Of a DNA stretch of 54,676 nucleotides, positions 1,190-51,701 are shown piece after piece. The stretch comes from Candidatus Parcubacteria bacterium (GTDB taxonomy: Bacteria; Patescibacteriota; Minisyncoccia; Phycocordibacterales; Zambryskibacteraceae). The notes beneath the pieces were generated by a model. The model was not told where the DNA came from. It was given only the letters and a program-made list of their open reading frames with translations, and searched no databases. The translations under genes and the position numbers were made by a program. The DNA lies in the NCBI GenBank assembly GCA_019661895.1, contig JAIFWO010000002.1, positions 1 through 54,676 of the forward strand, given 5' to 3'. The stretch's first letter is position 1, and every line of letters begins with the position of its first letter.

Positions 1190-1198
1190 TATCTATAT

Positions 1199-2952: not shown

Positions 2953-2956
2953 GTAT

Positions 2957-2985
2957 GGGCGCTCTCGAAAGAGGCGCCTTTTTGT
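2957..2985 (+). terminator. rho-independent terminator
   Basis: GGCGCTCTC-GAAA-GAGGCGCC hairpin with one bulged base and a GNRA loop, followed by TTTTTG. Confidence 0.6.
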
Positions 2986-3001
2986 TATATAATCACAACA
3001 A

Positions 3002-25585: not shown

Positions 25586-25607
25586 AAGTTTATGCTACCA
25601 TAACACG

Positions 25608-35703: not shown

Positions 35704-36468
35704 ATGAATAAAGATCTTTTCCTCGAAGGTGTTGAATACATCTCGGCTGGCCAAGCTGCAAAAAAAATTGGATACGCAAGTGACTACGTCGGCCAACTTT
35801 GCCGAGATGGAAAAGTCCCTGGTAAATTAATTGGTCGTACATGGTACGTAGATTTTTCTTCCCTTCTTAATCACAAGATAAGTAGTTCTACGCGAAAGAA
35901 AAAATCAGCAGTAGCAACAGAAATTAACGATGGAACTTCTTTCGTCGCTGTCCCAACCGAAGTAAAATCAGAAGAAAATCTCCCTAGAAAATTAAAAGAA
36001 AGCACTCCTGTAGAAGCAAAAATTTCAGCTATATCTCGTCAGGCCGAGCCGAGATATACACCGCTAAAGATCAAAATTCCTCCGCCAAGAGCTTTTGTCA
36101 TCACCAAGAAGCCCTCACGAGCATTCAAAATCATAAAAGTTTCGATAGGCACTTTCCTTTTCCTGATGCTTGCCGTTAGCACCCTTTCCATGGGGCTTGA
36201 GGGTAGTCCCAATCCTCTCAAACTCGCGACTGCCCTCTTCTCAGAAACTAATACTGCCGCAGTGGGGCAGGGCCAGGGCATTGTGGTGGTTCCAGACTCA
36301 GCTGATCACAATGCACTTGTGTCGCGGATACAAAACTTTTTCTCTGATGATGTCACTATCGCCTTCGACGAAGATGCTGATACGGGAGTGATCACTCCGG
36401 TATTCCATGAGGGAGACGATAGCGAACATTACGCATTCGTCATGGTACCTATCAAGAAAGCACAATGA
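35704..36468 (+). CDS. membrane-tethered HTH protein (N-terminal HTH_17-like domain, one TM, ~90-aa extracytoplasmic domain)
   Basis: ISAGQAAKKIGYASDYVGQLCRDGKVPGKLIGRTWYV is the HTH segment and IIKVSIGTFLFLMLAVSTLSMGL is the TM segment. The stop overlaps the giant-gene start (ATGA at 36465-36468). Confidence 0.6.
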   Translation: MNKDLFLEGVEYISAGQAAKKIGYASDYVGQLCRDGKVPGKLIGRTWYVDFSSLLNHKISSSTRKKKSAVATEINDGTSFVAVPTEVKSEENLPRKLKESTPVEAKISAISRQAEPRYTPLKIKIPPPRAFVITKKPSRAFKIIKVSIGTFLFLMLAVSTLSMGLEGSPNPLKLATALFSETNTAAVGQGQGIVVVPDSADHNALVSRIQNFFSDDVTIAFDEDADTGVITPVFHEGDDSEHYAFVMVPIKKAQ

Positions 36469-39400
36469 GTTTCAAGCGCCTTTCCATCTCAGTGTTGCTC
36501 TTGTCGGTGATCTTCTCACCGCTTAGCCTCTTTGCGCAGGAGATGTCTTCAGGTGGCTACGCTATACAAAGTGATAGCGTAAACTTCGCAGGAGGAAAAA
36601 GCTCCTCAGCTTCCTACAATGTCGAAGATACTGCCGGCGAGATTGCCACCGGCCCTTCAGCAAGCGCGAGCTACAGTTTGAAAGATGCTGGATACCAAAG
36701 CACGACTGGTCCAGTGACGACTCCAGACACTTCGGCGCCGTCGACTCCCGCCAATGTGAATGCTACGGCGGTGTCCTCGGCCAGTATTGAAGTTACCTGG
36801 GACGCTTCGACAGACAATGTCGGGGTGGACAGCTATCGCATATACCGAGACGCGGTGCTCGTTGCCGATGTGGCCATCTTCCCAAGAGATTTTGTCGATA
36901 CTGGCCTAACCCCAGACACCCTCTACGCATATAACGTCTCGGCGGTCGATGCCGCCGGAAATGAGTCAGCTCTCTCGGTATCAGCAAGCGCCCAGACGCT
37001 GGCTCTACCGGTTTCTGTCACGCCGGGATCCTCCCCCGGTTCTTCGTCAGGCCGTACTTTGCAGTTGACCAACTTCATCATAGTGCCGAGTGATACGAGC
37101 GCTCTGGTCTCCTTTACCACCTCAGTGCCTGTGACGACCAAAATAGAGTGGACCGCGTCCGGAGTGGTGCGCAGTGTTCTCAGCAATGAATTGAAGACCG
37201 AACACCACCTTACTCTTAACTCGCTCGTACCGGCGACCGGATACAATGTGCGCATTATTGTCACGACAGCGCTCGGAGTACAGACAACCTTTGAGGGTAT
37301 TGGATTCAGGACGCTCACGGTGGTAAACGTCGTCAGCCCGCTAAACGTCACAAACTTATCCGCTACTCATACAGAGAACGACATCGAGCTTGCCTGGTCC
37401 TTGCCGAAGGATCCTTCGATCGTGGGAGTGCGTCTGGTGCGCTCAACAAGTTTCTATCCGACGTCGCCGGATGACGGGAAAATAATTTTCGAAGACTTTA
37501 ATGGCGGCAAGGCTCTAAACTTCTCCGATACAGACGTGGTGGTGGGAAAGACTTATTACTACGCGATCTTTACCAAAGACATCTCGGGCAACTTTTCCTC
37601 TGGGGTGGTGGCGCATGCGAGCATCCCGCTTCCAGGAGAGCCGGTCGCTACGACCACTCCGCTCGACAATCTGCCTGAAGCCGCTAACGTCGATCCGGCC
37701 ATTGCCGCCCTCGTCACGAAAGACTTCCTCTTTATCCAAGATGGAGACAGCTTGCCTGTATCCGGTGACACGGTCACTATAAACGGCAACAAGAATTTGA
37801 CGGTCGCGCTCAAGTATTACCACCTGCCGGAGGTCTTGAAGACCGTGGCAGTGACTCTGGTGGGATGGGAGAACGGAAGTCCAAAATCCTTCACTTTCCT
37901 TTTGCGCGCCAATCGCGACAAGACTCGTTATGAGGCAACTATCGGTGCTCTGGTGGTGGGAACGTATGGCTTGAAGATCACCGTCATCGACTTCAAGAAT
38001 CAAGGCTTGAAAAAGATCGCCGGCACGCTCGTCGCGGGTGAGAACCTAGAGGCAGCTGCGCAAGAGATTTCTGGTAAGGACATAATGGTAGTCCTCGGCG
38101 TCGCTCTCCTCATATTGTTGGCGGTCTTCGGCAACTGGTTACGCAAATACTTCCTTAGGCGCCGCCGATTTGCTCGGGCGGTCATGCCGGTATTGTTTGC
38201 GGTGTTCCTCTCCGGGATCTTGGCTGCCTCTGTCTTGGCCCAGACATTTAATGCCAGCTTCAATCCTGAAATAAATTATCAAGGAAGGCTCACTGATACG
38301 AGCAATACTCCAGTCGCTGACGATTCGTACAATATGCGCTTCAAGCTCTACACCACTTCGACTGGGGGAGCGCCAATTTGGACTGAGACGGATTCTCTAA
38401 GCGATACGGTGACAGTTTCCTCAGGACTCTTCTCGCTTATGCTCGGTTCGACGACCGCGCTCTCGGGGGTGGACTTCAATCAGACTTTATACCTTTCGGT
38501 AGAGATCGGCGGTACCTCGACTGTACCTGTGTGGGATGGAGAGATGAGCCCAAGAAAGGTGCTTGGCGCGGTGCCTGCGGCATTTGTCTCAGACACACTC
38601 GACGGCCTTGATTCGACGCAGTTTGTCAGAAGCGACGCTACCTCGACCATTGCTTCCTCGTCCTCACAAACACTCCTAACTATCAATCAGACTGGTACAG
38701 GAAACCTTTTGGATATTCAGAAGTCCGGTGTCTCTCAACTTACGGTCGGTGGAACTGGGATAATCTTCACCAACTCCACCGGTACCTCTGCTACCACCAC
38801 TAATCTCTTCGCTACCACCGCCTCCACCACCAACTTCTTCGGAGCTGGACTTAGTACATGTAATAGTGCCGGTAATGCTCTGACCTACAACGGGGCGGGG
38901 AAGTTTGGCTGTGGATCTTTCACTACTGCGGCCTCTTCCACGCTTCTAGCAGACAACAATACCTTCAGCGGTGCTAACACCTTCTCACAAACTATCACTG
39001 GTTCCATCTCCGGTAACGCCGGCAGTGCCACCGTTCTCCAAAATGCTCGTACCATTAACGGCACCTCCTTCAACGGTACGGCCAACATCACGATCATGGC
39101 GGCTTCGTCCACTTTACTCGCAGACAATAATACCTGGACGGGAGGAAATATCTTTGGTAATGCCACAACGACAAATGCCACCACGACCTCTCTGTTTACC
39201 ACAAACGGCACTCTCACAAATCTTTTGTATACGACGGCTAACGGTGGAGCTATTACCTCGACTGGTCTTGGAAGCTTCGCCAATCTTTTTGCCTCTGGAT
39301 CAACGACGCTCCAAAACTTCACTGGTCTTAATTCAACGACGACCAATGCTACGACCACATCGATCTTTAGTGCTATTGCTTCTTCGACCAATCTTTTCTC

Positions 39401-42400
39401 GGCGGCGGCAAGGTTGGGTGCGCTGACCTTGGGAAATATTATAGGCACCACGCAGTGTCTCCATGTTGATACTAACGGAGTAGTCTCTGGTACTGGAGTG
39501 GAGTGCGGTAGCGGTTCTGGCTCCGTCACCTCAGTCTCGAACGTAGATGGTACACTCACCATTTCTCCCACCACTGGAGCAGTCGTTGCCTCACTTAATC
39601 TCGGCACAGGGAATGTCTGGACAGCCGCTTCGACCACCTTTGTAAACGGCGTCACTCTCGGTCGCTCGACTACTACTAACGCCACCACAACAAACTTTTT
39701 TGCCACTACTGCATCCACTACCAACCTCTCAGTCGCTAATACTATTCAAGGATCGGTCTCGGGTAATGCCGGTACGGCAACAGCTCTTCAAAATGCACGT
39801 ACTATTAACGGTACCTCCTTCGACGGCACGGCCAACATCACGATCACGGCGGCTTCGTCTACTCTTCTGGGAGATACTAATACATGGACTGGGGACAATG
39901 TCTTCGGCAACGCCTCCTCTACTAACTTCTTTGCCACTACGGCAAGTTCCACCAATCTCTTCTCCACTGCTCTGACCACCGGCCTCATCACTTCCGGTCT
40001 TGTGAATGGCCAAACAATCTCAAGCGCCGCCAACTTTACCGGCACCCTTACCACCTCGGGTCTCGGCACGTTTGGCAATCTCCTCACTACAGGCTCCTCG
40101 ACGCTCCAAAACTTTACGGCTCTTAACTCCACCTCTACAAATGCGACAACGACGTCATTATTTGCTTCTACGGCTTCTTCAACAAATCTCTTTAGCTCCA
40201 GCGGCAACATCGGTCTTCTAACCATAGGCAACTCCACCTCATCTAACGCTACTTCCACCAATTTCTTTGCCACTACAGCAAGTTCAACGAATCTCTTCTC
40301 AACAAGTTTAAATACAGGCCTTATCACCTCCGGTAACGTTAACGGCCAGACCGTAAGCTCTGCGGCTAACTTCACGGGAACTGTTACCGCCACGGGGGGC
40401 CTCACCACGCTCTCCAATCTCTTGCTTGCTGGCTCGACAACGCTTCAGAATCTGACCTTCGTTAATGCCACTGGTAGTGCTGCTACGACCACGAATTTGT
40501 TTGCTACCAGTTTGACGGCAGGAACGCTCAAGACCACGAGCACTGCTACTATCGGCGGGAGTCTCTTTATCAGTACAGTGCTCAACTGTAATTCCTCATC
40601 ACAATCTCTCCAAACAGACGGGTCTGGTATTGTGTCTTGCGGAACTATAACCGGAGGCGGTGCATCCGTTGGTGGCGGCTGGGCCTCGCTCGCTCCAAAT
40701 ATCGTGAGACTCTCGACGACCACCGATCTTGTCGGTGTCGGCACAACCAGTCCATATGCCAAAGTCTCGATTAACTCTGGCGCCCAAGCTACGACCACCT
40801 TGGCGCTTGTGCCGGTCTCTGGTCAGACGGCTAATATCATAGATATATACGACATCTCCAGTAACCTCTCGAGCGTCTTTACCTCTGGGGGACGATTGGG
40901 CATCGGCTCGACTTCGCCATCATCAATGCTTACTGTCGGCGGGGAAGCATATATAGACGGTGATCTCACCGTCTCTGGAGCGAGCGGTTTACAAAACTTT
41001 ACGGCTCTTAACTCCACCTCGACCTCCGCCACCACTACCAACCTCTTCGCCACTACAGCCTCTACCACGAACTTCTTCGGGGCCGGACTTAGTACTTGCT
41101 CAAGCGCTGGGAACGCCTTGACATATAATGGATCAGGGAAGTTCGGATGCTCGACCATTACCGCGGCTTCCACCACTCTTCTTGTAGACAATAACGCCTT
41201 TACCGGAGCCAATACTTTTGTTGGAGTGACGATTACCCGTTCCACTACCACTCAAGCTACCACTACAAACTTCTTCTCAACTACAGCTTCAAGTACGAAC
41301 CTCTTTAGTACGAACGGCAACATTGGCCTTCTCACTATAGGCAACTCCACCTCATCCAACGCCACTTCCACTAACTTCTTTGCTACTACCGCAAGTTCCA
41401 CTAATCTCTTCTCCACCACTCTTACCACTGGCCTTATCACTTCTGGGCTTATCAATGGCCAAACAATCTCTTCCGCCGCCAACTTCACCGGCTCACTTAC
41501 GGCTTCAGGCTTAGGTACATTTGGTAATCTCTTAACTTCAGGATCTTCTACTTTCCAGAACTTCACTTTCGTTAATGCTACTGGCACCTCGGCTACCACC
41601 ACCAATCTCTTTACCACCACAGCTTCCACTACCAACTTCTTCGGAGCCGGGCTTAGTACATGTAATAGTGCAGGCAATGCTCTTACTTACTCTGGAGGCA
41701 AGTTTGCTTGCTCGAGCGTTACCGCCGCCTCCTCTACGCTCCTCGCAGACAACAACACCTTCACAGGAGCAAACATCTTCAACAACATCACTCGCTCCAC
41801 CACTACTTCCGCTACTACTACCTCGCTCTTCTCTACTACCGCATCATCTACCAATGTCTTCTCCACCAATGGCAATATTGGCCTCTTAACCATAGGCAAC
41901 TCCACCTCATCTAACGCTACTTCCACTAACTTCTTTAGTACTACAGCAAGTTCCACCAACCTCTTCTCCACTGCTCTCACCACTGGTCTCATTACCTCAG
42001 GCAACGTGAACGGCCAGACGATCTCTTCCGCAGCTAACTTCACTGGTACTCTCACTGCTTCTGGCTTAGGAACATTTGGCAATCTTCTCTCCTCTGGTTC
42101 TTCCACCTTCCAAAACATCACCTTCTTGAATTCAACGAGTACCAACGCCACCACGACTTCTCTCTTCACTGCCACCGCCTCCACCACCAACCTCTATGTG
42201 GCCACGGGAGCAGGCTGTCTCCAGGTAGATTCGGCCGGCAAGGTCTTCTCCATTGGCTCTGCTTGTGGTACAGGAAGCGGCTCTGTGACCTCCGTCTCAG
42301 ATAATGGAGGAGGTACGCTCACTATTTCTCCTACCACTGGAGTGGTGTCCGCTTCTATTAATTTGGGCAATTCAAACGTCTGGACGGCCGCTTCCACAAC

Positions 42401-45400: not shown

Positions 45401-48400
45401 GCTCTCAAGCTGTTCAGGCGCTACCAACGCTCTAACCTACAACGGGGCAGGGAGGTTTGCTTGCGGCTCTATTACCACCGCCGCTTCTTCAACACTTTTG
45501 GCAGACAATAATGCCTTCTCGGGTAACAATTCCTTTGCCAATCTCTTGGTGAATGGCTCTTCCACTTTGCAGAACTTCACCTTTATAAATGCTACTGGTA
45601 CTTCGGCTACGACCACTAATCTCTTCTCTACCACAGCAAGTTCAACAAATCTTTTCTACACTACAGCTTCTGGTGGTAACGAAACACTTTCTGGATTACT
45701 CACCGCTTCAAACATTCGAGCCAACGGCTCCACCACTCTCCAGAACTTCACGGGAGTTAACGCTACTACCTCAGGAGCCACAACAACTAACGCATTTGCA
45801 ACCACTGCTTCCTCAACTAACCTCTTTAGTACGAACGGCAATATCGGACTTCTTACAGTAGGCAATTCAACATCTTCCAACGCCACTTCCACTAACTTCT
45901 TTAGCACTACGGCAAGTTCCACTAATCTCTTCTCCACCACTCTTACCACTGGCCTTATCACTTCTGGGCTTATCAATGGCCAAACAATCTCTTCCGCCGC
46001 CAACTTCACCGGCTCACTTACGGCTTCAGGCTTGGGAACATTTGGGAATCTTCTCTCCAATGGCTCGTCTACACTTCAAAACTTCACCTTTATAAACGCC
46101 ACTGGCACTTCTGCTACCTCAACGAACTTCTTTGCAACCACCGCTTCAAGTACAAATCTCTTTGCCACAAACGAAAACATTGGCTTCTCACTCATTGGCC
46201 GTTCTACTACTACCGCTGCCACTACCACCTCTCTATTCGCTACCACTGCCTCTACTACCAGCTTCTTCGGGGCTGGTCTATCTACCTGTTCTGGTGCTAC
46301 TAATGCCTTGACCTACGATGGAGCGGGGAAGTTTGCTTGCGGTTCGATTACCACCGCCGCTTCTTCTACACTTCTGGCGGACAATAATACCTTCACCGGA
46401 GCAAATATCTTCAATAACATCACCCGCTCTACCACCACTTCAGCTACCACCACCAATCTCTTTAGTACCACTGCTTCAAGCACCAATCTCTTTAGTACTA
46501 ATGGAAATATCGGTCTGTTAACAATAGGAAATTCAACGAGTACTAACGCCACTACGACAAATACATTCTCCACTACAGCTTCCTCAACCAACCTCTTCTC
46601 AACAAGTTTAAATACTGGCTTGATCACTTCTGGGCTTATCAATGGCCAAACAATCTCTTCCGCCGCCAACTTTACGGGTACACTTACCACTTCAGGTCTC
46701 GGCACGTTCGGCAACCTTCTCTCCAATGGATCATCAACTTTCCAAAATATCACCTTCGTTAATGCTACTGGTACCTCGGCTACGACCACTAATCTGTTTG
46801 CGACGACGGCTTCTACCACCAACTTCTTCGGAGCCGGACTTAGTACATGTAATAGTGCATCGAACGCATTGATATACGATGGAGCGGGGAAGTTTGGCTG
46901 TAACACAATCTCTGGTACCGCCGCCTCCTCCACCCTCCTCGCAGACAACAACACCTTCACCGGAGCAAACATCTTCAACAACATCACTCGCTCCACTACT
47001 ACTAATGCCACCACTACTACCATCTTCTCTGGTACTGCCTCTTCCACCAACTTGTTCTCTACTAATGCTAACCTCGGTCTCGTCACAATAGGCAACTCCA
47101 CCTCATCTAACGCCACTACCACCAACCTCTTCTCTACCACAGCAAGTTCAACCAATCTCTTCTTCACCACCGCTTCCGGAGGCAGCCTTACCTCATCGGG
47201 TATTGGTACCTTTGCCAACCTTCTCTCCACAGGCTCTTCCACTCTCCAAAACTTTACAGGTCTTAATTCCACTACCACCAACGCTACTACCACTACTATC
47301 TTTGCTACCACGGCTTCGAGTACCAATCTCTTCGCTACGAATGCCAACCTCGGTCTCGTCACTCTTGGTAGATCTACTACCAGCGATGCAACAACCACCA
47401 ACCTCTTCGCCACCACAGCTTCTACCACTAACTTCTTCGGGGGAGGACTATCAACATGCACCGGCTCAAATGTGCTTCAGTGGAGCGCTGGCAAATTCTC
47501 ATGTGCTGCATCCGCTAGCTCGGCTTCCTCAACCCTCCTCGTAGATAATAACGCCTTTACCGGAGCCAATACCTTTGTGGGAGTGACGATTACTCGTTCT
47601 ACCACCACTTCTGCCACTACTACCTCGCTTTTCAGTACCACGGCTTCTTCTACAAATCTCTTCTCCACCAATGGCAATATCGGACTTCTTACAATAGGCA
47701 ACTCAACTTCTTCTAACTCCACCTCCACCAACCTCTTTGCCACTACCGCAAGTTCGACCAACCTCTTTTCTACGGCTCTGACCACAGGCCTTGTCACTTC
47801 CGGTCTTGTGAATGGCCAAACAATCTCAAGCGCCGCCAACTTCACTGGCACCCTCACTGCCACTGCCGGCTTGACCACTCTTTCAAATCTTTTGGTAACA
47901 GCCTCTTCTACTGTTGGTAACGGCACTCAAGCCGGAGGATTGACTATCAATGGCCAAGCCACTACTACCAATCTTTTAGTGACTGGGTCATCGACACTCC
48001 AAAACTTTAGTTTTGTGAATGCTACTGGTACTTCTGCAACAACAACGAACTTCTTTAGCACCACAGCTTCCTCGACCAATCTCTTCTCGACCTCACTTAA
48101 CACTGGTTTAATTACTTCCGGCAACGTGAATGGCCAAACCATAAGTTCTGCTGCCAACTTCACCGGGACTCTTACTGCGACTGGTGGCCTGACCACTTTG
48201 TCCAATCTTTTCCTCTCTGGCTCAACCACTCTCCAGAACTTCACTGGTATAAATTCCACTACCACCAATGCCACGACTACCTCACTTGCTATTAGAAGTA
48301 TTACTGGTTCGACGCAGTGTTTGCATGTAGATACCAATGGTTTGGTTACCGGCACAGGCAGCGATTGCGGAGCAAGCAGCGCCTCAACCGACAAATTCGC

Positions 48401-51400
48401 CACTTCGACCACGCAAAACTTCACCATCACGCCTAACTCAGCAGTGGCCCTTGTCATTGGCCGCAATGCTACCACCACGAGATCGTTGTTGGAAGTAAAT
48501 GGCACCACCACCGCCACTAACTTCGTGGCCACTTCGACGACAGCCTTTAGTACCTTCGCAGGCAATGTTGGTATTGGCACAACCTCTCCTTACAGGACAC
48601 TCTCAGTAAATGGATTTATTAATACTGACGGAACAACTGGTGGTTATCAGATAGACGGCGTGACCGCTCTGCAAGCTAGTTCGACAAATTTCGGGACATT
48701 CATCGGTCTTGGGGCAGGAACTTCCACCAGCGCTACAGGTTTCCGCAACACCTACGGAGGATATTGGGCTGGACAAGGAGAGGTAAATGGCGATGATAAC
48801 GCCAGCTTCGGCTACCGGGCGCTTGCTATAGGCAGCGGTAGTACCAACTCTGCCTTCGGCTCGTTCGCCTTGGAGAACAGCAGTGGCAATACCAACTCGG
48901 CATTAGGATATGCCGCTTTGCAAGCGAACACAGGAGGAATAAGCAACACTGCCGTAGGCGCCCAAGCTCTCACCGCCAACCTGAACGGATCAGAGAGTGT
49001 GGCAGTGGGCTATCAGTCTCTCGCGCTCTTCACCGGCACCGATCCCAATACCGCGCTAGGTACTTGGTCGCTCAATAAGACGACCAGCGGCGGGGGAAAT
49101 ACAGCCACAGGATATACTTCCTTGTTCAACAACACCACCGGATTTTCAAATACCGCCATAGGTCAGGATGCCCTTAACGCGGTTACCACCGGTTCTTTGA
49201 ACACGGCGGTTGGTCGAAATGCTGACTCGAAGAATCGCACCGGCACCGCCAATACAACACTCGGCTACAATGCCTTACTTGGAGTAACAGCCAACTCTCA
49301 CTCTTCATCCACAGCTGTCGGATACGGGGCGGGGTCTGCCGTGACCACCGGCAATGGCAATACCCTTCTCGGCTACAAGGTTGGAGATAACATCACGACC
49401 GGGAGTAACAACATTGTCATCGGCTACGACATCGACTCACCAACAGCCTCCAACTCGAACACTCTCAACATTGGCAACCTCCTCTTCGGTACTGTACTTG
49501 ATGGAACGGGAACCACCATATCAAGCGGCAATATAGGCATCGCCTCTTCCACTCCGTGGGGCAGGCTCTCGGTCGAGATGGATACCATCGATCCTGCCTT
49601 CGTAATTGCTAACCAAGGCTCTTCGACGCCTTCCTTATATGTAGGTGGGGTAAACCAAAATGGCTTCGTGGGCTTCGGTACCACCACCACTCCTTCGCTG
49701 GCTCGCATTATTATCGATAATACCATCGGCTCTGATGCTGGATCGGGTATTGCCGTGGCCGGAGAGCACCAGATCTACACCTTCAACCCTTCGACGACGA
49801 ATACAGTCCAAGTTGGTAACCGCACGATTGTGCAGAACTCTCCTGTCGGTGCTACGGCCACCAACACTGCCGTTGGTACACTCATTCGCATGATAGATAA
49901 TAGTGGTATCTCAAACTTGGTCCGTGGGCTTGAGGTAGTGGCGAGCGCTGGTAATACCACCTTCGGAGTCAATACTGGCATCCGTGGTTCTGGGCACACC
50001 TTCGGCGTTCAAGGTATTACCACCGGGCTAGCTGGCGGCACCTCAACACCGGCTGCCATCTATGGTGAGAACTCTGGTACGACTCAGGGAGATATCTTGC
50101 GCCTCTATACTTCTACTATGACCACGGCGACCTCGGTGGCGAGCTTCTACCAAGAGATCTCAACCTTTACCGGCACTGGCCTGACTATGAACTTCGGCAA
50201 GGGTGGAGGAACATTCACGGGTAAGTTCGTGGACTTTAAGGTCAATGATAATACTCGCTTCAAGGTCGAGTATGGTGGTACCACGACGATTGGTCAATTG
50301 AGTCAAACCACCACTCAAGCTGGTATCCAAATTGGATACGGAGGACTTTGTGTTGATAACGATGGAGCATGTACCGCTACTACCACTGGCCGCGTCACCG
50401 CGCGTGAGTATATCACCGCCGGTGCCGACCTCGCGGAAGCTTACTACTCATCGGAGTCTCTCACTCCGGGAGATATCGTGTTTACTAAGGGTAAGTTCTA
50501 CGTTGGCAAGGCCTCCTCCTCGACCGATCCGGTCATTGGAGTGGTCTCGACTAGGCCCGGCATGACACTCGGCACGGGCGAGGTGAAGTTCTCAAGCTTA
50601 AACGAATATCCAATTGGTCTCTCGGGCCGCGTGCCAGTCAGGCTCTCCACGGAGAATGGAGTGATAAATGTCGGAGACAAGATCGCCCTCTCGAGCATTG
50701 CTGGCGTGGGTATGAAGTATGATCCGACCAAGCCGGGCACTATCATCGGTATCGCCCTTGAGGCCTTCGACGGTACTGATGCACTCTCCGAGGGAACGGT
50801 GGAGGTGAAGACTCAAAAAGTTTCCTCAGGTTCCACATGCACGACGACGGAAAGTTCCGGCGACAAGCAGGCCTGGGGCGGTGGAGACAGCGAGGGCACT
50901 ACGACGCACACCACTAGTACCGGGACAGAGACAAGCTGTACGCAAAATGAGGTCACCCTCATTCCCGATGCCGGGACAGCCGAGTCGAGCACGACCAATG
51001 CGGGCATGACGGTCAAGGTAGGTAGCGCGCTGGTCTTCCTCGGTATCGAACGCCCGACCCTTACAGCTAGCCAGGGCTCAATGACTCTGGCACAAGGGGA
51101 TTATAGTCTCGAGAATCACAGCATCTTAAACGTAAAGAGTATCGCCAGCGCCAACGGTAAGTGGTCAATAAACGAGGATGGGGAATTGGTCGTGGAATCC
51201 ATCCGCGCTAAACGAGCCAACTTCTCGGACAGTGTGGAAGTCGGTACCAAGGAGATGCCGACGGGCCTCACGCTCTACGACTCTGCCACCGGCGCACCGT
51301 ATTGCTTGAGTATGAACAATGGTGCGATCTCTTCGGCCCCTGGACTATGTAAGGCCGCCGCTCCGACAGCCAGTTTGACTCAAACTACTATCATTAGCTC

Positions 51401-51701
51401 CACTACCACTCCTACATCAACCACATCATCAAGCACGCCAATAGTCTCTACGACCAGCACAAGTACCGCCACTACGACGAGCCATACCACAAGTACTGCT
51501 TCAAGCACGCCAAACACTACTTCGACCCCGACGCTCTCGACCACGTCGGAGGTCGGGGAGCCGACCGGAAGCGTCGGCTCCAGTACTCCTGCGACCACCA
51601 CGAGCACTAGCACGCCGAGCCTCACCGAGTCTACCAACTCCACAGCTTCATCCTCTCCTCTAACTACTGAAACTTCATCGTCCACGCCACCGACGACGTG
51701 A
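36465..51701 (+). CDS. giant (5078 aa) secreted/surface fibre-adhesin-like protein: signal peptide, FN3 domains, internal TM hairpin, tail-fibre-like repeat array, YadA-head-like tracts and a mucin-like tail
   Basis: A single uninterrupted 15,237-nt ORF. The signal peptide is MSFKRLSISVLLLSVIFSPLSLFA. One FN3 domain reads PSTPANVNATAVSSASIEVTWDASTDNVGVDSYRIYRD...YAYNVSAVDAAGNES. The INYQGRLTD... domain, NARTINGTSF(N/D)GTANITI motifs and NTA(V/L)G repeats are described in the findings. Confidence 0.85.
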   Translation: MSFKRLSISVLLLSVIFSPLSLFAQEMSSGGYAIQSDSVNFAGGKSSSASYNVEDTAGEIATGPSASASYSLKDAGYQSTTGPVTTPDTSAPSTPANVNATAVSSASIEVTWDASTDNVGVDSYRIYRDAVLVADVAIFPRDFVDTGLTPDTLYAYNVSAVDAAGNESALSVSASAQTLALPVSVTPGSSPGSSSGRTLQLTNFIIVPSDTSALVSFTTSVPVTTKIEWTASGVVRSVLSNELKTEHHLTLNSLVPATGYNVRIIVTTALGVQTTFEGIGFRTLTVVNVVSPLNVTNLSATHTENDIELAWSLPKDPSIVGVRLVRSTSFYPTSPDDGKIIFEDFNGGKALNFSDTDVVVGKTYYYAIFTKDISGNFSSGVVAHASIPLPGEPVATTTPLDNLPEAANVDPAIAALVTKDFLFIQDGDSLPVSGDTVTINGNKNLTVALKYYHLPEVLKTVAVTLVGWENGSPKSFTFLLRANRDKTRYEATIGALVVGTYGLKITVIDFKNQGLKKIAGTLVAGENLEAAAQEISGKDIMVVLGVALLILLAVFGNWLRKYFLRRRRFARAVMPVLFAVFLSGILAASVLAQTFNASFNPEINYQGRLTDTSNTPVADDSYNMRFKLYTTSTGGAPIWTETDSLSDTVTVSSGLFSLMLGSTTALSGVDFNQTLYLSVEIGGTSTVPVWDGEMSPRKVLGAVPAAFVSDTLDGLDSTQFVRSDATSTIASSSSQTLLTINQTGTGNLLDIQKSGVSQLTVGGTGIIFTNSTGTSATTTNLFATTASTTNFFGAGLSTCNSAGNALTYNGAGKFGCGSFTTAASSTLLADNNTFSGANTFSQTITGSISGNAGSATVLQNARTINGTSFNGTANITIMAASSTLLADNNTWTGGNIFGNATTTNATTTSLFTTNGTLTNLLYTTANGGAITSTGLGSFANLFASGSTTLQNFTGLNSTTTNATTTSIFSAIASSTNLFSAAARLGALTLGNIIGTTQCLHVDTNGVVSGTGVECGSGSGSVTSVSNVDGTLTISPTTGAVVASLNLGTGNVWTAASTTFVNGVTLGRSTTTNATTTNFFATTASTTNLSVANTIQGSVSGNAGTATALQNARTINGTSFDGTANITITAASSTLLGDTNTWTGDNVFGNASSTNFFATTASSTNLFSTALTTGLITSGLVNGQTISSAANFTGTLTTSGLGTFGNLLTTGSSTLQNFTALNSTSTNATTTSLFASTASSTNLFSSSGNIGLLTIGNSTSSNATSTNFFATTASSTNLFSTSLNTGLITSGNVNGQTVSSAANFTGTVTATGGLTTLSNLLLAGSTTLQNLTFVNATGSAATTTNLFATSLTAGTLKTTSTATIGGSLFISTVLNCNSSSQSLQTDGSGIVSCGTITGGGASVGGGWASLAPNIVRLSTTTDLVGVGTTSPYAKVSINSGAQATTTLALVPVSGQTANIIDIYDISSNLSSVFTSGGRLGIGSTSPSSMLTVGGEAYIDGDLTVSGASGLQNFTALNSTSTSATTTNLFATTASTTNFFGAGLSTCSSAGNALTYNGSGKFGCSTITAASTTLLVDNNAFTGANTFVGVTITRSTTTQATTTNFFSTTASSTNLFSTNGNIGLLTIGNSTSSNATSTNFFATTASSTNLFSTTLTTGLITSGLINGQTISSAANFTGSLTASGLGTFGNLLTSGSSTFQNFTFVNATGTSATTTNLFTTTASTTNFFGAGLSTCNSAGNALTYSGGKFACSSVTAASSTLLADNNTFTGANIFNNITRSTTTSATTTSLFSTTASSTNVFSTNGNIGLLTIGNSTSSNATSTNFFSTTASSTNLFSTALTTGLITSGNVNGQTISSAANFTGTLTASGLGTFGNLLSSGSSTFQNITFLNSTSTNATTTSLFTATASTTNLYVATGAGCLQVDSAGKVFSIGSACGTGSGSVTSVSDNGGGTLTISPTTGVVSASINLGNSNVWTAASTTFVNGVTLGRSTTTNATTTSLFSTTASSTNLFSTNGNIGILTIGNATSSNSFSSTASSTNLFSTNASLGQVTLANATSTTLFSTVASSTDLFSTALTTGLITSGNINGQTISSAANFTGTLTASGLGTFGNLLSSGSSTLQNFTFVNATGTSATTTNFFATTASSTNLFAAASQLGSVTINSITGSTQCLRVDSTGKISGTGSDCSTAGSSGSVNLGNQGQVPYYSANATTTLSATSTIFIATNENVGIGDTNPQNKLSVNGSVAITAGNTYKYDGINIAAGEKTLKNYFFGNAGNISALGSDNVGVGDLALFTIAGVSAGASSKNTAVGSCALCNLGSSGVSSANTALGYHAGAGVLAAGADDNTAVGNLTITDSVGSRNTALGSEALSLLYGNGGSANVKNNTAVGFQALSTGSNSIASSTALGYMAGFASTGSDDLFLGAQADALSGGLTNVTAIGAMAKAGSSNSFILGGTGSYAVNVGIGLTTPSARLTVKGTSGQTNDLVQVASSTGTALFTIDSVGNITASGLATFSDLTTTGVATLPSILFTNATGTSATTTNFFSTTASTTNFFGAGLSTCSSAGNALTYNGAGRFACGSITTAASSTLLADNNTWTGSNIWTAASSTFVNGVTLGRSTTTSATTTSLFSTTASSTNLFFTTASGGNLTSSGIGTFANLLSNGSSTLQNFTFVNATGTSATTTNIFATTASSTNLFATTENIGFSLIGRSTTTAATTTNLFSTTASSTNLFSTALTTGLITSGNVNGQTISSAANFTGTLTATGGLTTLSNLQVNGSSTLQNFTGLNSTTTNATSTSLFTTTASTTNFFGAGLSTCSSAGNALTYDGAGKFACGSITTAASSTLLVDNNAFTGLNTFTDLKLVTRSTTTAATTTNIFSTTASSTNFFSTNGNIGLLTIGNSTSSNSTSTNFFSTTASSTNLFATILNTGNITSTGLITAANLLATGSSTLQNFTGLNSTTTNATSTNLFATTASTTNFFGAGLSSCSGATNALTYNGAGRFACGSITTAASSTLLADNNAFSGNNSFANLLVNGSSTLQNFTFINATGTSATTTNLFSTTASSTNLFYTTASGGNETLSGLLTASNIRANGSTTLQNFTGVNATTSGATTTNAFATTASSTNLFSTNGNIGLLTVGNSTSSNATSTNFFSTTASSTNLFSTTLTTGLITSGLINGQTISSAANFTGSLTASGLGTFGNLLSNGSSTLQNFTFINATGTSATSTNFFATTASSTNLFATNENIGFSLIGRSTTTAATTTSLFATTASTTSFFGAGLSTCSGATNALTYDGAGKFACGSITTAASSTLLADNNTFTGANIFNNITRSTTTSATTTNLFSTTASSTNLFSTNGNIGLLTIGNSTSTNATTTNTFSTTASSTNLFSTSLNTGLITSGLINGQTISSAANFTGTLTTSGLGTFGNLLSNGSSTFQNITFVNATGTSATTTNLFATTASTTNFFGAGLSTCNSASNALIYDGAGKFGCNTISGTAASSTLLADNNTFTGANIFNNITRSTTTNATTTTIFSGTASSTNLFSTNANLGLVTIGNSTSSNATTTNLFSTTASSTNLFFTTASGGSLTSSGIGTFANLLSTGSSTLQNFTGLNSTTTNATTTTIFATTASSTNLFATNANLGLVTLGRSTTSDATTTNLFATTASTTNFFGGGLSTCTGSNVLQWSAGKFSCAASASSASSTLLVDNNAFTGANTFVGVTITRSTTTSATTTSLFSTTASSTNLFSTNGNIGLLTIGNSTSSNSTSTNLFATTASSTNLFSTALTTGLVTSGLVNGQTISSAANFTGTLTATAGLTTLSNLLVTASSTVGNGTQAGGLTINGQATTTNLLVTGSSTLQNFSFVNATGTSATTTNFFSTTASSTNLFSTSLNTGLITSGNVNGQTISSAANFTGTLTATGGLTTLSNLFLSGSTTLQNFTGINSTTTNATTTSLAIRSITGSTQCLHVDTNGLVTGTGSDCGASSASTDKFATSTTQNFTITPNSAVALVIGRNATTTRSLLEVNGTTTATNFVATSTTAFSTFAGNVGIGTTSPYRTLSVNGFINTDGTTGGYQIDGVTALQASSTNFGTFIGLGAGTSTSATGFRNTYGGYWAGQGEVNGDDNASFGYRALAIGSGSTNSAFGSFALENSSGNTNSALGYAALQANTGGISNTAVGAQALTANLNGSESVAVGYQSLALFTGTDPNTALGTWSLNKTTSGGGNTATGYTSLFNNTTGFSNTAIGQDALNAVTTGSLNTAVGRNADSKNRTGTANTTLGYNALLGVTANSHSSSTAVGYGAGSAVTTGNGNTLLGYKVGDNITTGSNNIVIGYDIDSPTASNSNTLNIGNLLFGTVLDGTGTTISSGNIGIASSTPWGRLSVEMDTIDPAFVIANQGSSTPSLYVGGVNQNGFVGFGTTTTPSLARIIIDNTIGSDAGSGIAVAGEHQIYTFNPSTTNTVQVGNRTIVQNSPVGATATNTAVGTLIRMIDNSGISNLVRGLEVVASAGNTTFGVNTGIRGSGHTFGVQGITTGLAGGTSTPAAIYGENSGTTQGDILRLYTSTMTTATSVASFYQEISTFTGTGLTMNFGKGGGTFTGKFVDFKVNDNTRFKVEYGGTTTIGQLSQTTTQAGIQIGYGGLCVDNDGACTATTTGRVTAREYITAGADLAEAYYSSESLTPGDIVFTKGKFYVGKASSSTDPVIGVVSTRPGMTLGTGEVKFSSLNEYPIGLSGRVPVRLSTENGVINVGDKIALSSIAGVGMKYDPTKPGTIIGIALEAFDGTDALSEGTVEVKTQKVSSGSTCTTTESSGDKQAWGGGDSEGTTTHTTSTGTETSCTQNEVTLIPDAGTAESSTTNAGMTVKVGSALVFLGIERPTLTASQGSMTLAQGDYSLENHSILNVKSIASANGKWSINEDGELVVESIRAKRANFSDSVEVGTKEMPTGLTLYDSATGAPYCLSMNNGAISSAPGLCKAAAPTASLTQTTIISSTTTPTSTTSSSTPIVSTTSTSTATTTSHTTSTASSTPNTTSTPTLSTTSEVGEPTGSVGSSTPATTTSTSTPSLTESTNSTASSSPLTTETSSSTPPTT
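41391..41512 (+). repeat. 122-bp perfect direct repeat, copy 1
   Basis: Identical by eye to 45912-46033 (gcaagttccactaatctcttctccaccactcttaccactgg...cggcttcaggctt). Confidence 0.8.
45912..46033 (+). repeat. 122-bp perfect direct repeat, copy 2
   Basis: Identical by eye to 41391-41512, 4.5 kb upstream in the same ORF and the same frame. Confidence 0.8.

What the first reader, a model, noticed from the sequence alone, without database searches (positions are those of the whole stretch)
36465..51701. 15.2-kb single-ORF composite fibre (5078 aa) mixing FN3, tail-fibre-like and trimeric-autotransporter-head-like elements
This one ORF occupies 28% of the window. In order, it contains:
- a signal peptide
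- a triplicated S-x-x-Y strand motif (SGGYAIQSDS..SSASYNVEDT..SASASYSLKD)
- three FN3-like domains and an Ig-like region
- a TM hairpin
- an INYQGRLTD...LFSLMLG...YLSVEIGG domain that I recognise from tail-fibre-domain proteins
- two NARTINGTSF(N/D)GTANITI motifs (39042-39095 and 39792-39845), which to my memory resemble phage tail-fibre repeats
- about 3000 aa of T/S/N repeats
- two NTA(V/L)G beta-helix-like tracts
- a conserved C-terminal module
- a mucin-like tail
No cell-wall sorting signal, autotransporter barrel or T9SS/T1SS C-terminal signal is recognisable, so the mode of anchoring and export is open. For a small-genome, possibly episymbiotic organism, this is a prime candidate for a host-attachment or predation fibre.
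Basis: partly seen in the sequence, partly recalled or inferred. Interest (0 to 1): 0.85.

Follow-up and report, generated by a model that had tools for sequence, protein, structure and literature searches.

The report
Giant membrane-anchored phage-like surface fibre
One 15-kb gene of an ultra-small Patescibacteria (CPR) bacterium encodes a very long surface filament resembling a phage tail fibre, fused to its own membrane-anchor protein. It is a large member of a widespread but undescribed family that these bacteria probably use to hold on to other cells.

Summary
It is not a one-off.

**What it is.** It is a natural fusion of two genes that are adjacent and separate in most Paceibacteria/Parcubacteria relatives:
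- a secreted protein of about 560 aa with FN3 domains and a C-terminal membrane helix;
- a fibre gene with its own signal peptide.

In the window, that former signal peptide is the second helix of the "TM hairpin". This largely answers the anchoring and export question: Sec export plus a membrane hairpin or FN3 partner.

**The fibre.** It has a conserved 125-aa β-sandwich N-domain, a 3260-aa almost uncharged Thr/Ser/Asn-rich modular shaft with 18 Cys-pair loops, and a distal β-helix resembling phage tail fibres. Its C-terminal domain starts at D4655 and resembles the self-cleaving chaperone of phage phi29 gp12. An orthologue carries the alternative S74 chaperone instead.

**Closest known kind.** Bdellovibrio "MAT" adhesive fibres and phage tail fibres.

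**How common.**
- 507 species genomes encode the N-domain.
- The FN3 gene is adjacent or fused in 69 of the 80 loci examined, and fused in 13.
- Relatives reach 4801 aa.

Host attachment is plausible but inferred. Verdict: a new variant of a known kind, of moderate to high interest.

The parts
35701..36468 (+). Upstream partner gene (255 aa): HTH_17-like N-terminus, one TM helix, and a C-terminal ectodomain of about 80 aa. Its stop overlaps the giant ORF's start (ATGA).
   Evidence: sequence, 4-nt overlap. The Pfam HTH_17 hit is sub-threshold but recurs in 6 of 10 homologues. A homologue lies upstream of the fibre in 58 of 80 species loci, and directly upstream where the FN3 gene is missing.
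36465..36536 (+). N-terminal Sec signal peptide (aa 1-24, MSFKRLSISVLLLSVIFSPLSLFA|QE).
   Evidence: Hydropathy scan. Basic n-region and small residues at the predicted cleavage site, read from the sequence.
36543..36695 (+). Three S-x-x-Y β-strand-like motifs (aa 27-77).
   Evidence: Conserved in the consensus of 37 family members.
36720..37640 (+). Three FN3-like domains (about aa 86-175, 195-287, 290-392).
   Evidence: Pfam fn3 at aa 93-169, E 3e-11. PDB hits. The family profile aligns with tandem FN3 structures over positions 88-317. The third domain rests on sequence pattern only.
37662..38063 (+). Conserved β-rich (Ig-like?) membrane-proximal ectodomain (aa 400-533).
   Evidence: Highly conserved block in alignment A5. 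The fold was not tested.
38082..38243 (+). TM hairpin: TM1 (aa 540-560) is the C-terminal anchor of the ancestral FN3 protein. A basic loop RKYFLRRRRFAR follows. TM2 (aa 572-593) is the ancestral signal peptide of the fibre, with a signal-peptidase-like site ...SVLA|QT.
   Evidence: Hydropathy. Stand-alone homologues end just after TM1. The separate fibre gene of L002 starts with a signal peptide followed by AFNASFNPEINYQG. Junctions of 11 other fused loci keep small residues at -1 and -3 before the N-domain.
38250..38624 (+). Fibre N-domain (aa 596-720, NASFNPEINYQGRLTD...): a β-sandwich that defines the family. It is the presumed cell-proximal docking domain.
   Evidence: AF2 pLDDT above 90 over about 100 residues. 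No significant PDB or viral structural neighbour. 19,978 representatives at E up to 1e-3. 507 species-genome loci.
38685..48464 (+). Shaft (aa 741-4000) built from shuffled short modules: STLQNFT..ATTTNLFxTTASSTNLF; Cys-loop GAGLSTC..ALTYNGAGKFxC (9 copies); NGQTISSAANFTG (10 copies); TQCLHVDTNG..C (3 copies). Only 3.2% of residues are charged.
   Evidence: The same modules occur in orthologue L002 and in P0296.
38997..39164 (+). Phage tail-fibre-like repeat 1 (contains NARTINGTSFNGTANITI).
   Evidence: PHROG 1833, E 3e-5. tblastn hits in 215 phage records, including gp37-like fibres.
39747..39914 (+). Phage tail-fibre-like repeat 2 (contains NARTINGTSFDGTANITI).
   Evidence: Direct repeat D13, 77% DNA identity to repeat 1. 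Motif position.
43032..44054 (+). Internal β-helix-like NTxxG tract 1 (aa 2190-2530), flanked by MAT-type capping loops NVGIGDTNPQNKL and NVGIGLTTPSARL.
   Evidence: motif positions. Capping-loop consensus and the Bdellovibrio examples.
48522..49664 (+). Distal β-helix (aa 4020-4400): capping loop NVGIGTTSPYRTL, NTxxG tract 2, and closing loop NIGIASSTPWGRL.
   Evidence: PHROG 4636 (tail spike), E 9e-18. Phage tail-fibre hits at 35-45% identity, E down to 1e-23.
49665..50426 (+). Pre-chaperone distal module (aa 4401-4654). If the chaperone is cleaved off, this is the presumed mature tip.
   Evidence: Conserved in relatives. AF2 monomer confidence is low. No PDB hit.
50427..51374 (+). C-terminal phi29-gp12-like (Peptidase_G2-type) intramolecular chaperone. 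It starts at the D4655-L-A-E motif. The core is aa 4655-4790, followed by a Cys-containing linker and a second conserved domain running to aa 4970.
   Evidence: Pfam PF11962 on homologues P0011 (25 bits, at the cut-off) and P0001. Profile versus PDB hits 3gqh from its residue 1. hhalign E 4.5e-5, with D4655 aligned to gp12 D692. AF2 pLDDT 73-90 from exactly D4655, and Foldseek top hits 3suc and 3gqh. The D-[LIV]-A-E motif is kept in about 52 of 55 relatives.
51387..51698 (+). Mucin-like Ser/Thr/Pro tail (aa 4975-5078).
   Evidence: 68% Ser/Thr and 10% Pro.

Best explanation
The ORF encodes a Sec-exported, membrane-tethered, probably homotrimeric surface fibre of a Paceibacteria (CPR) bacterium. 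It belongs to the phage-tail-fibre-like "MAT" kind of adhesin and is fused to the FN3 membrane protein that serves as its dock in relatives.

**Shown:**
- The N-terminal 595 aa correspond to a protein that is separate in most relatives: signal peptide, three S-x-x-Y strands, FN3 domains and a C-terminal TM helix.
- The rest corresponds to the gene that follows it in those relatives.
- The second helix of the hairpin is that gene's former signal peptide.

**Inferred topology.** Both large parts lie outside the cell, with the short basic loop inside.

**Inferred mechanism:**
1. The chain is threaded out by the Sec system.
2. The 18 Cys pairs form disulphide loops. A DsbB gene sits in the conserved neighbourhood.
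3. Three chains are registered from the C-terminus by the gp12-like chaperone domain, which may then cut itself off at A4654|D4655. That would expose the distal β-helix and tip module.
4. Signal peptidase may cut after TM2. The fibre would then be held non-covalently through its N-domain by the FN3/TM protein, and perhaps by the upstream HTH-TM protein. If TM2 is not cut, the fibre stays covalently tethered.

**Inferred function.** A shaft of about 4000 aa would give a fibre roughly 150-220 nm long, comparable to the cell's own diameter. Its variable tip would bind a surface glycan or protein on a host or partner cell.
For: **Fusion and anchor:**
- Most N-terminal homologues are stand-alone proteins of 555-580 aa that end after TM1.
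- In L001 and L002 the FN3 gene and the fibre gene are adjacent. In L002 they overlap by 4 nt.
- The fibre in L002 has its own signal peptide followed by AFNASFNPEINYQG.
- Of 80 species loci, 56 have a separate FN3 gene upstream and 13 have it fused.
- L009 is collinear with the window over 800 aa at 49% identity.
- Fused junctions keep a signal-peptidase-like site.
- A similar FnIII-plus-TM protein, PamR, is proposed to anchor a CPR pilus.

**Native cellular gene:**
- The synteny Wzy_C/TPR-SecA-DsbB-MYG1-Obg-GatB is conserved.
- Codon usage is native to the window.

**Trimeric, phage-fibre or MAT kind:**
- Orthologue L002 ends in Peptidase_S74 and hits Bd2133, PDB 8ond.
- The relatives' profile hits Bd2439, PDB 8ol4.
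- Five to six capping loops fit the MAT consensus.
- Phage tail-fibre similarity is seen.
- The position and size of the N-domain match the MAT description.

**Chaperone:**
- Searches support the gp12-like domain.
- gp12 is a homotrimer whose chaperone domain is absent from the mature virion (PMC9863714; PMC4690869).

**Lifestyle.** All cultivated Patescibacteria are episymbionts (abstract of PMC12206443).
Against: - **No direct evidence of function.** Nothing shows surface location, trimer formation, processing or binding.
- **Chaperone evidence is individually weak.**
  - The window itself gets no Pfam G2 hit.
  - hhalign probability is 69% over 69 columns.
  - Foldseek E is about 2e-3 on a model with mean pLDDT 49.
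- **ATP dependence.** As I recall Xiang et al. 2009 (from memory, not checked here), gp12 self-cleavage needs ATP. ATP would be lacking outside the cell.
- **C-terminal extras.** A 100-aa mucin-like tail and a further conserved domain lie downstream of the putative cleavage site. That is odd for a part that is discarded.
- **MAT similarity is indirect.** The window's own β-helix segments give no PDB sequence hits. The MAT hits come from relatives.
- **N-domain homology untested.** Homology to the Bdellovibrio MAT N-domain could not be tested.
- **Anchor not universal.** 11 of 80 loci lack an FN3 gene.
- **Tip uninformative.** The tip has no recognisable lectin fold.
Confidence: 0.6

Rival explanations
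1. It is a structural envelope component, such as a spacer, coat or S-layer-like fibre, or a glycocalyx scaffold. On this view it is not a host-specific adhesin. The uncharged Ser/Thr-rich shaft and mucin-like tail would carry glycans made by the adjacent glycosylation cluster.
For: - The locus sits at a conserved chromosomal position next to housekeeping genes.
- It lies directly downstream of a 27-kb glycan-synthesis cluster that includes a Wzy_C/TPR protein.
- The cassette is near-universal in the class, with 507 species loci.
Against: - C-terminal modules are mosaic among relatives: S74 type, G2 type and different tips. That pattern is typical of receptor-binding fibres.
- N-x-S/T sequons are not enriched: 117 observed against 127±8 expected.
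- The closest characterised relatives are adhesins or receptor-binding proteins.
Confidence: 0.2
2. It is an enzymatic tailspike-like fibre. The distal β-helix would degrade a host surface polymer, as phi29 gp12 digests wall teichoic acid, to open the way for feeding. This is compatible with the adhesion reading.
For: - PHROG 4636 (tail spike), E 9e-18.
- The gp12-type chaperone.
- gp12 appendages recognise and digest wall teichoic acid (PMC9863714).
Against: - No catalytic domain or motif was found by Pfam, NCBIfam or PDB sequence search.
- Similarity to gp12 is confined to the chaperone domain.
- The phage matches of the β-helix are to proteins annotated as fibres.
Confidence: 0.1
3. It is an assembly or annotation artefact. 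Either two genes were joined by a sequencing error, or the repeat array was collapsed or expanded by mis-assembly.
For: - One 122-nt exact in-frame repeat pair, 4521 nt apart.
- Fibre genes often sit at contig ends in relatives.
- The window's contig was not found in public collections, so there was no independent copy.
Against: - The same fusion occurs in 13 of 80 independent species genomes and in 7 of the 147 family proteins checked.
- In unfused relatives the two genes lie in different frames, so one lost stop would not fuse them.
- Other repeats are only 60-87% identical.
- There is no stop in 15.2 kb.
Confidence: 0.05
4. It is a prophage or phage-derived tail-fibre gene, not a cellular surface protein.
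For: Phage-like modules occur throughout.
Against: - No other phage genes lie in the 54-kb window.
- It carries Sec signal peptides and a membrane anchor.
- The position next to gatB, obg and secA is conserved across species.
- Codon usage is native.
Confidence: 0.03

Closest known systems
Bdellovibrio bacteriovorus MAT (mosaic adhesive trimer) fibres, Caulton et al. 2024 (PMC10769870)
   Same: - A signal peptide is followed directly by a conserved β-rich N-domain of about 130 aa, with no structural homologue in the PDB.
- The shaft is β-helical, with capping loops of the same consensus (NVGIGTTSP..L).
- C-termini are mosaic, with or without an S74 chaperone.
- Relatives of the window hit the Bd2439 and Bd2133 structures.
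- The proposed role is binding another cell's surface.
   Different: - The organism is a CPR lineage, presumably monoderm, and none is in their list. Their longest protein is 1915 aa.
- The window protein is 3-5 times longer.
- Its shaft is an almost uncharged Thr/Ser/Asn-rich repeat with Cys loops.
- Its chaperone is of the gp12/G2 type.
- It is fused to, or encoded next to, an FN3/TM protein. The MAT surface dock is unknown.
- Homology of the two N-domains was not tested.
Phage phi29 gp12 pre-neck appendage (tailspike) with a Peptidase_G2 intramolecular chaperone (PDB 3suc, 3gqh)
   Same: - The C-terminal domain begins with D-x-A-E at the position of gp12's S691|D692 cleavage site.
- The fold is β-rich and is the top Foldseek match.
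- It follows a β-helix.
   Different: - Sequence similarity covers only about 70 residues.
- The window adds a further domain and a mucin-like tail.
- It folds outside the cell.
- No similarity to gp12's enzymatic β-helix was found.
Phage long tail fibres and S74-chaperone fibres (T4 gp37-like, T5 pb1, K1F endosialidase)
   Same: - The NARTINGTSFDGTANITI-type repeat and the NTxxG β-helix match phage fibre proteins.
- Orthologue L002 carries Peptidase_S74.
   Different: - It is a cellular, Sec-exported, membrane-anchored protein.
- The window lacks the S74 domain and its S-D-x-x-x-K motif.
PamR of the CPR Pam pilus, Troman et al. 2026 (bioRxiv 10.64898/2026.03.03.709456)
   Same: - It is a secreted protein with tandem FnIII domains, a C-terminal TM helix and an extra N-terminal β-strand.
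- It is proposed to tether an extracellular filament to the membrane.
- A tail-fibre-like gene co-localises with that operon.
   Different: - It comes from a different CPR class (Saccharimonadia/Microgenomatia).
- The filament there is a donor-strand-exchange pilus, not a trimeric fibre.
- Sequence homology to the window's FN3 part was not tested.
Trimeric autotransporter adhesins (YadA family)
   Same: There is a superficial likeness between the NTA(V/L)G repeats and YadA-head repeats. Some relatives are auto-named "trimeric autotransporter adhesin" by JGI.
   Different: - There is no β-barrel anchor.
- There are no YadA or Hep_Hag Pfam hits.
- The organism is presumed to lack an outer membrane (my knowledge of CPR envelopes, not tested).

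Membership tests
MAT fibre superfamily (Caulton 2024) | A signal peptide immediately followed by a conserved β-rich N-domain of about 130 aa | tested here: met
   The (internal) signal peptide ends at about aa 593. The 125-aa domain at aa 596-720 is a β-sandwich with pLDDT above 90. In unfused relatives it follows the N-terminal signal peptide.
MAT fibre superfamily (Caulton 2024) | The N-domain is homologous to that of the Bdellovibrio MATs | not testable with these tools
   No Bdellovibrio N-domain sequence or model was available. Like theirs, the window's domain has no significant PDB neighbour. That is consistent with homology but is not a test of it.
MAT fibre superfamily (Caulton 2024) | Capping-loop motif V-G-G/N-π-x-x-P-x-x-x-L on β-helix segments | tested here: met
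   Five regex matches (LGIGSTSPSSML 1478, VGIGDTNPQNKL 2225, VGIGLTTPSARL 2460, VGIGTTSPYRTL 4035, IGIASSTPWGRL 4357), plus VGVGTTSPYAKV at 1424. Compare the Bdellovibrio loops NVGIGATSPSAKLQ and others.
MAT fibre superfamily (Caulton 2024) | Sequence similarity to solved MAT fibres | tested here: inconclusive
   The relatives' profile hits 8ol4 (Bd2439) at E 1e-4. Orthologue L002 hits 8ond (Bd2133) at E 0.002. The window's own segments give no PDB hits.
MAT fibre superfamily (Caulton 2024) | Intertwined homotrimer | not testable with these tools
   Only monomer AF2 was available. Low pLDDT in the pre-chaperone region is what an obligate trimer would give, but it proves nothing.
Peptidase_G2 / phi29 gp12 intramolecular chaperone (PF11962) | Pfam model at or above the gathering score | tested here: not met
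   The window's C-terminus gives no hit even at E up to 10. Homologues: P0011 at 25.0 bits (equal to the cut-off) and P0001 at 16.9 bits.
Peptidase_G2 / phi29 gp12 intramolecular chaperone (PF11962) | D-x-A-E motif at the position of gp12's S691|D692 cleavage site | tested here: met
   hhalign E 4.5e-5 aligns D4655 with gp12 D692. D, A and E are invariant in A1. D-[LIV]-A-E is present in about 52 of 55 relatives. The profile matches 3gqh from its residue 1.
Peptidase_G2 / phi29 gp12 intramolecular chaperone (PF11962) | Fold of the gp12 C-terminal fragment | tested here: inconclusive
   The top two Foldseek PDB hits are 3suc and 3gqh (E about 2e-3, TM 0.49 on the target, 158 of 163 columns). 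The model's mean pLDDT is only 49, rising to 73-90 in this domain.
Peptidase_G2 / phi29 gp12 intramolecular chaperone (PF11962) | Self-cleavage and release after trimer assembly | not testable with these tools
   This needs expression of aa 4400-5078 and of D4655/E4658 mutants.
Peptidase_S74 intramolecular chaperone (PF13884) | Pfam hit and an S-D-x-x-x-K catalytic motif near the C-terminus | tested here: not met
   No Pfam hit and no motif. It is present in orthologue L002 and in 29 of the 147 family proteins checked.
Trimeric autotransporter adhesin (YadA-like) | C-terminal YadA β-barrel anchor and YadA-head/Hep_Hag repeats | tested here: not met
   No such Pfam hits at E up to 10. The C-terminus is a Ser/Thr/Pro tail.
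Phage tail-fibre repeat (Pfam Phage_fiber_2, PF03406) | Pfam hit on the NARTINGTSF..ANITI units | tested here: not met
   No Pfam hit. The resemblance is nevertheless real: PHROG 1833 at E 3e-5 and 215 phage records at 50-75% identity.
Fibronectin type III domain | Pfam fn3 above the gathering score | tested here: met
   43.7 bits against a cut-off of 25, at aa 93-169. A second domain is shown by the family profile.
Sortase-anchored (LPXTG) surface protein | C-terminal LPXTG, a hydrophobic stretch and a basic tail | tested here: not met
   The only LP.[TSA][GAN] matches are at aa 403 and 430. There is no C-terminal hydrophobic segment.
PamR-like FnIII membrane anchor of CPR filaments | Secreted, tandem FnIII domains, a C-terminal TM helix, and extra N-terminal β-strand(s) | tested here: inconclusive
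   The architecture matches. Sequence or structural homology to PamR was not tested because no sequence was at hand.

The most novel reading that the evidence does not exclude
The fused ORF would be a "Rosetta stone" for a question left open for MAT-type fibres: what holds their invariant N-domain on the cell.

On this reading, the FN3/TM protein is the dedicated membrane dock of the fibre, possibly together with the HTH-TM protein encoded just upstream. The three conserved S-x-x-Y strands at the anchor's N-terminus might engage the N-domains of the trimer by strand complementation, as proposed for PamR. The HTH-TM protein would link fibre status outside the cell to gene expression inside.

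The three-gene cassette would then be the main host-contact apparatus of Paceibacteria. Its swappable tips and chaperones would encode host range.
Probability: 0.3. Interest if true: 0.75.

Novelty: new variant of a known kind. Interest (0 to 1): 0.55.

Why it matters
Paceibacteria/Parcubacteria are the most diverse class of the CPR. Their hosts, and the way they attach to them, are largely unknown.

This locus shows a conserved three-gene cassette: an HTH-TM protein, an FN3-TM protein and a fibre.
- 507 species genomes encode the fibre's N-domain.
- In the 80 best loci, the FN3 gene is adjacent or fused in 69 and the HTH-TM gene is upstream in 58.
- The fibres run from 1300 to about 4800 aa, resemble phage tail fibres, and carry interchangeable C-terminal chaperone and tip modules.

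In public records these proteins are named only "hypothetical" or "tail fiber domain-containing".

The recurrent fusion with the FN3 membrane protein gives a concrete, testable candidate for the fibre's anchor. That component is still unidentified for the related Bdellovibrio MAT adhesins.

The variable tips could be used to predict or probe host specificity. The uncharged Thr/Ser/Asn-rich shaft with regular disulphide loops is an unusual fibre material whose structure is not known.

Tried and rejected
- **Trimeric-autotransporter reading.** Rejected: no YadA-type Pfam hits even at lax thresholds.
- **S74 chaperone in the window.** Absent.
- **N-glycosylation of the shaft.** Sequons are not enriched: 117 observed against 127±8 expected.
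- **Prophage origin.** Rejected on context and synteny.
- **Source contig.** Exact look-up of the window's GatB and Obg found no record.
- **PDB sequence searches.** The C-terminal 1078 aa, the distal β-helix and a 1210-aa shaft segment gave nothing.
- **NCBIfam.** Only an FN3-containing exoglucanase model was hit.
- **Fold of the N-domain.** Only generic Ig-like matches in the PDB (best E about 0.1). Only weak matches to small uncharacterised phage proteins in BFVD (E 2e-3 or weaker).
- **AF2 of aa 4350-4654 as a monomer.** Uninformative, with pLDDT of 30-40.
- **First genome scan with a diverse alignment.** It failed for lack of a conserved stretch and was repeated with closer sequences.
- **Length bias in the search for homologous proteins.** It lists only hits up to about 1.75 times the query length, so it hid the giant relatives. 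The exhaustive search was needed to see them.
- **Internal start for the fibre part.** There is no evident ribosome-binding site before the only nearby ATG, M574.
- **Literature.** Searches for a prior description of these CPR fibres found none in the open-access library. That is not proof of absence.
Full report
**1. The observation**

The ORF at 36465..51701 (+) is real. It starts with ATG and runs 5078 codons without a stop.

A hydropathy scan finds exactly three hydrophobic segments:
- the N-terminal signal peptide, aa 5-25;

*FN3 region.* Pfam finds one strong FN3 domain at aa 93-169, E 3e-11. PDB sequence hits agree. A profile of 37 family members aligns with tandem FN3 structures over positions 88-317, which confirms a second domain. 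The third FN3 and the "Ig-like" block at aa 400-533 are conserved, but their folds were not tested.

*Motifs and composition.*
- The central 3260 aa (741-4000) is 18-26% Thr, 14-18% Ser and 7-13% Asn, with only 103 charged residues.
- Cysteines come as 18 pairs. Fourteen of them, all in the fibre's shaft, are spaced 15-17 residues apart.
- The last 103 aa are 68% Ser/Thr.

*Contiguity.*
- At the DNA level the repeat families are only 60-87% identical, and every spacing is a multiple of three.
- The longest exact repeat is a single 122-nt pair 4521 nt apart.
- A collapsed or chimeric assembly is therefore unlikely, though repeat number at that one point cannot be guaranteed without reads.
- Codon usage equals that of the window's housekeeping genes.

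**2. It is a fusion of two conserved neighbouring genes**

A search with aa 1-760 returned mostly stand-alone proteins of 555-580 aa from Parcubacteria, Paceibacterota and Zambryskibacteria. They cover only the first 570 or so residues and end just after TM1 with a short basic tail.

Two such genes were located on their contigs (L001 and L002). The gene order matches the window:
- Wzy_C/TPR, SecA, (VTT), DsbB or thioredoxin, MYG1, Obg, GatB;
- a small MerR-like gene on the other strand;
- a small ORF;
- the FN3 gene;
- a large gene.

In L002 that large gene is separate and 2106 aa long, and it overlaps the FN3 gene by 4 nt. It begins with its own signal peptide followed by AFNASFNPEINYQGRLVD. 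It carries the same shaft modules as the window and ends in Peptidase_S74.

The window's TM2 (RRRRFARAVMPVLFAVFLSGILAASVLAQ|TFNASFNPEINYQG) is therefore the fibre's former signal peptide.

*Is the fusion an error?* The evidence says no.
- A scan of species-representative genomes with the N-domain found 507 loci, and the best 80 are all Patescibacteria.
- Of those 80 loci, 56 have a separate FN3-family gene directly upstream, 13 have it fused in one ORF, and 11 lack it.
- One fused relative, Parcubacteria bacterium C7867-005, is collinear with the window over 800 aa at 49% identity.
- Fused junctions retain small residues at positions -1 and -3 just before the N-domain, that is, a signal-peptidase-like site.

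**3. A third partner**

The 255-aa ORF at 35701-36468 overlaps the giant ORF's start (ATGA). It has three parts:
- an N-terminus that gives a recurrent but sub-threshold HTH_17 match;
- one TM helix;
- a small conserved ectodomain.

Homologues lie upstream of the fibre in 58 of 80 loci. In eight of the eleven loci that lack the FN3 gene, this gene precedes the fibre, directly in six and one ORF further upstream in L035 and L038. It is sometimes present in two tandem copies. The unit is thus a cassette: [HTH-TM]-[FN3-TM]-[fibre].

**4. Anatomy of the fibre**

- **N-domain (aa 596-720).** AF2 predicts a confident β-sandwich, with pLDDT above 90. It has no significant neighbour among solved structures or predicted viral structures.
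- **Shaft.** It is a patchwork of short modules used in varying order. These include two units that match T4-like gp37 and other phage tail fibres, and an internal NTxxG β-helix tract.
- **Capping loops.** Five to six loops fit the motif defined for Bdellovibrio MAT fibres.
- **Distal β-helix (aa 4020-4400).** It matches a PHROG tail-spike family at E 9e-18. It also matches tail fibres of pelagiphages, roseophages and cyanophages at 35-45% identity.

**5. The C-terminal module**

An alignment of about 20 Paceibacterota homologues shows an invariant D-x-A-E at D4655-E4658. The motif is kept in about 52 of 55 relatives.

Four lines point to the intramolecular chaperone of phage phi29 gp12:
- Pfam Peptidase_G2 hits the homologues P0011 (at the cut-off) and P0001, but not the window itself.
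- The family profile matches PDB 3gqh from its first residue, E 0.3.
- hhalign against gp12 gives E 4.5e-5 and probability 69%. It places D4655 on gp12 D692, the residue after the S691|D692 self-cleavage site.
- AF2 is poor overall (mean pLDDT 49), but confidence jumps to 73-90 exactly from D4655. Foldseek then ranks 3suc and 3gqh first, E about 2e-3.

gp12 is a homotrimer whose chaperone domain is absent from the mature virion (PMC9863714; PMC4690869).

Among relatives with the same N-domain, 46 carry this G2-type module and 29 carry S74. The two chaperone types are therefore alternative cassettes on one fibre family.

**6. Family size and length**

An exhaustive HMMER search with aa 585-760 found:
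- 19,978 representatives at E up to 1e-3;
- 4,511 at E up to 1e-10;
- 485 at E up to 1e-30.

I checked 147 family proteins: the new hits among the best 150 plus three cluster members. Twenty are 3000 aa or longer, the longest being 4801 and 4746 aa, and seven are fused to the FN3 module. Their source names are only "hypothetical protein".

The window's ORF is the longest seen. Its fibre part, about 4485 aa, is within the family range.

The Thr/Ser/Asn-rich "STNLF" shaft is lineage-specific. The window has 38 such motifs, P0296 has 16 and the L002 orthologue has 6. The other giants have none or only a few.

**7. How it most likely works**

*Shown:* the gene architecture, the topology signals, the family relationships and the conserved cassette.

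*Inferred:*
1. Sec export places both ectodomains outside, with the basic loop inside.
2. The Cys pairs form disulphide loops. DsbB lies in the conserved neighbourhood.
3. Trimerisation is nucleated by the C-terminal chaperone, possibly with self-cleavage at A4654|D4655.
4. Signal peptidase may cut after TM2. That would leave the fibre held by its N-domain on the FN3/TM protein, and perhaps on the HTH-TM protein.
5. The distal β-helix and tip would bind a surface structure on a partner cell.

*Length estimate.* Bd2133 residues 662-1031 span 142 Å, about 0.04 nm per residue. T4 long-fibre proteins give about 0.055 nm per residue (my knowledge). About 4060 residues would then make a fibre of roughly 150-220 nm.

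*Caveats.*
- Each chaperone line is weak on its own.
- gp12 cleavage is ATP-dependent as I recall, and ATP would be lacking outside the cell.
- A conserved domain and a mucin-like tail lie after the putative cleavage site.
- The MAT links come through relatives, not through the window's own segments.
- No experiment bears on function.

**8. Comparison with what is known**

The closest kind is the Bdellovibrio MAT adhesin family (PMC10769870). These are trimeric fibres that resemble phage tail fibres. They have an invariant N-domain after the signal peptide, capping loops, and S74 or other tips. Their cell-surface dock is explicitly unknown. That paper's list of MAT-like proteins in other lineages has no CPR member and a maximum length of 1915 aa.

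A 2026 preprint on CPR Pam pili proposes that an FnIII-plus-TM protein, PamR, tethers a filament to the membrane. It also notes a tail-fibre-like gene nearby. This is an independent precedent for the anchor role proposed here.

I found no paper describing this Paceibacteria cassette.

**9. Verdict**

- The TAA-like label is wrong.
- Anchoring and export are largely explained.
- The protein is an unusually long, fused member of a very large family, not a singular oddity.

Novelty: a new variant of a known kind. Interest: 0.55.

The most novel reading not excluded is that the fusion identifies the membrane dock of MAT-type fibres (probability about 0.3).

Noticed in passing
window 35701-36468 (+): A 255-aa ORF is translationally coupled to the giant ORF (ATGA overlap). 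It has an HTH_17-like N-terminus, one TM helix and a conserved C-terminal ectodomain (FFSDDVTIAFDEDADTGVITPVF..YAFVMVP). It is conserved upstream of the fibre in 58 of 80 species loci and sometimes duplicated in tandem. It could be a transmembrane regulator or a second dock.
   Followed up: partly
window 35221-35499 (-): A 92-aa MerR/HTH_17-like ORF lies on the opposite strand between gatB and the cassette. The same small gene sits at this position in L001 and L002, and a homologue occurs in 31 of 80 loci.
   Followed up: partly
window 1-27764: A large surface-glycan cluster. It contains seven GT4 glycosyltransferases, two epimerase/dehydratases, several methyltransferases, a UbiA prenyltransferase, a Polysacc_synt flippase, a DUF4015 glycosyl hydrolase and a Wzy_C+TPR protein (25518-27764). 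The Wzy_C+TPR gene keeps its place upstream of secA in relatives. Wzy_C enzymes include protein O-glycosylating enzymes (my knowledge), so the Ser/Thr-rich fibre could be a substrate. This was not tested.
   Followed up: partly
window 51715-54676 (+), runs off the window end: A second large secreted protein of at least 987 aa starts 14 nt after the giant ORF. It has a signal peptide, a Gly-rich low-complexity region, four 42-aa repeats (FNALNATGATKSWWGVSVNSTNGDVYA..; weak SSL_N/β-propeller-blade hit) and an FN3-like end. No homologue was found in the 80 related loci.
   Followed up: partly
window 3002-4783 (+): A 593-aa ORF gives weak hits to type IV secretion coupling proteins (TrwB_AAD_bind E 3e-6, T4SS-DNA_transf E 8e-6). 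It sits inside the glycan cluster.
   Followed up: no
window 41391-41512 and 45912-46033: The only long exact DNA repeat in the ORF is 122 nt, with copies 4521 nt apart and in frame. It suggests recent duplication or gene conversion between shaft units, and it is the one spot where short-read assembly could misjoin.
   Followed up: partly
window 40000-48000: GC skew is strongly negative (-0.13 to -0.37) along the shaft-coding region. Long "shadow" ORFs appear on the minus strand, for example 46313-47461 at 382 aa. Both are most simply by-products of the Thr/Ser/Ala/Leu codon bias (ACC, ACT, TCC, GCC, CTC), not separate genes.
   Followed up: partly
window 50835-51374 (aa 4791-4970); loci L007, L045, L047, L058, L079: The last conserved domain before the mucin-like tail (..VVESIRAKRANFSDSVEVG..TGLTLYDSATGAPYCL..) also occurs at the extreme C-terminus of relatives, downstream of either chaperone type: S74 in L007, L047 and L058, G2 in L045. 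Its role is unknown.
   Followed up: no
loci L003-L082: Many fibre genes of this family end at contig ends in public MAGs, so they commonly break short-read assemblies. Public protein sets therefore under-represent their true lengths.
   Followed up: partly
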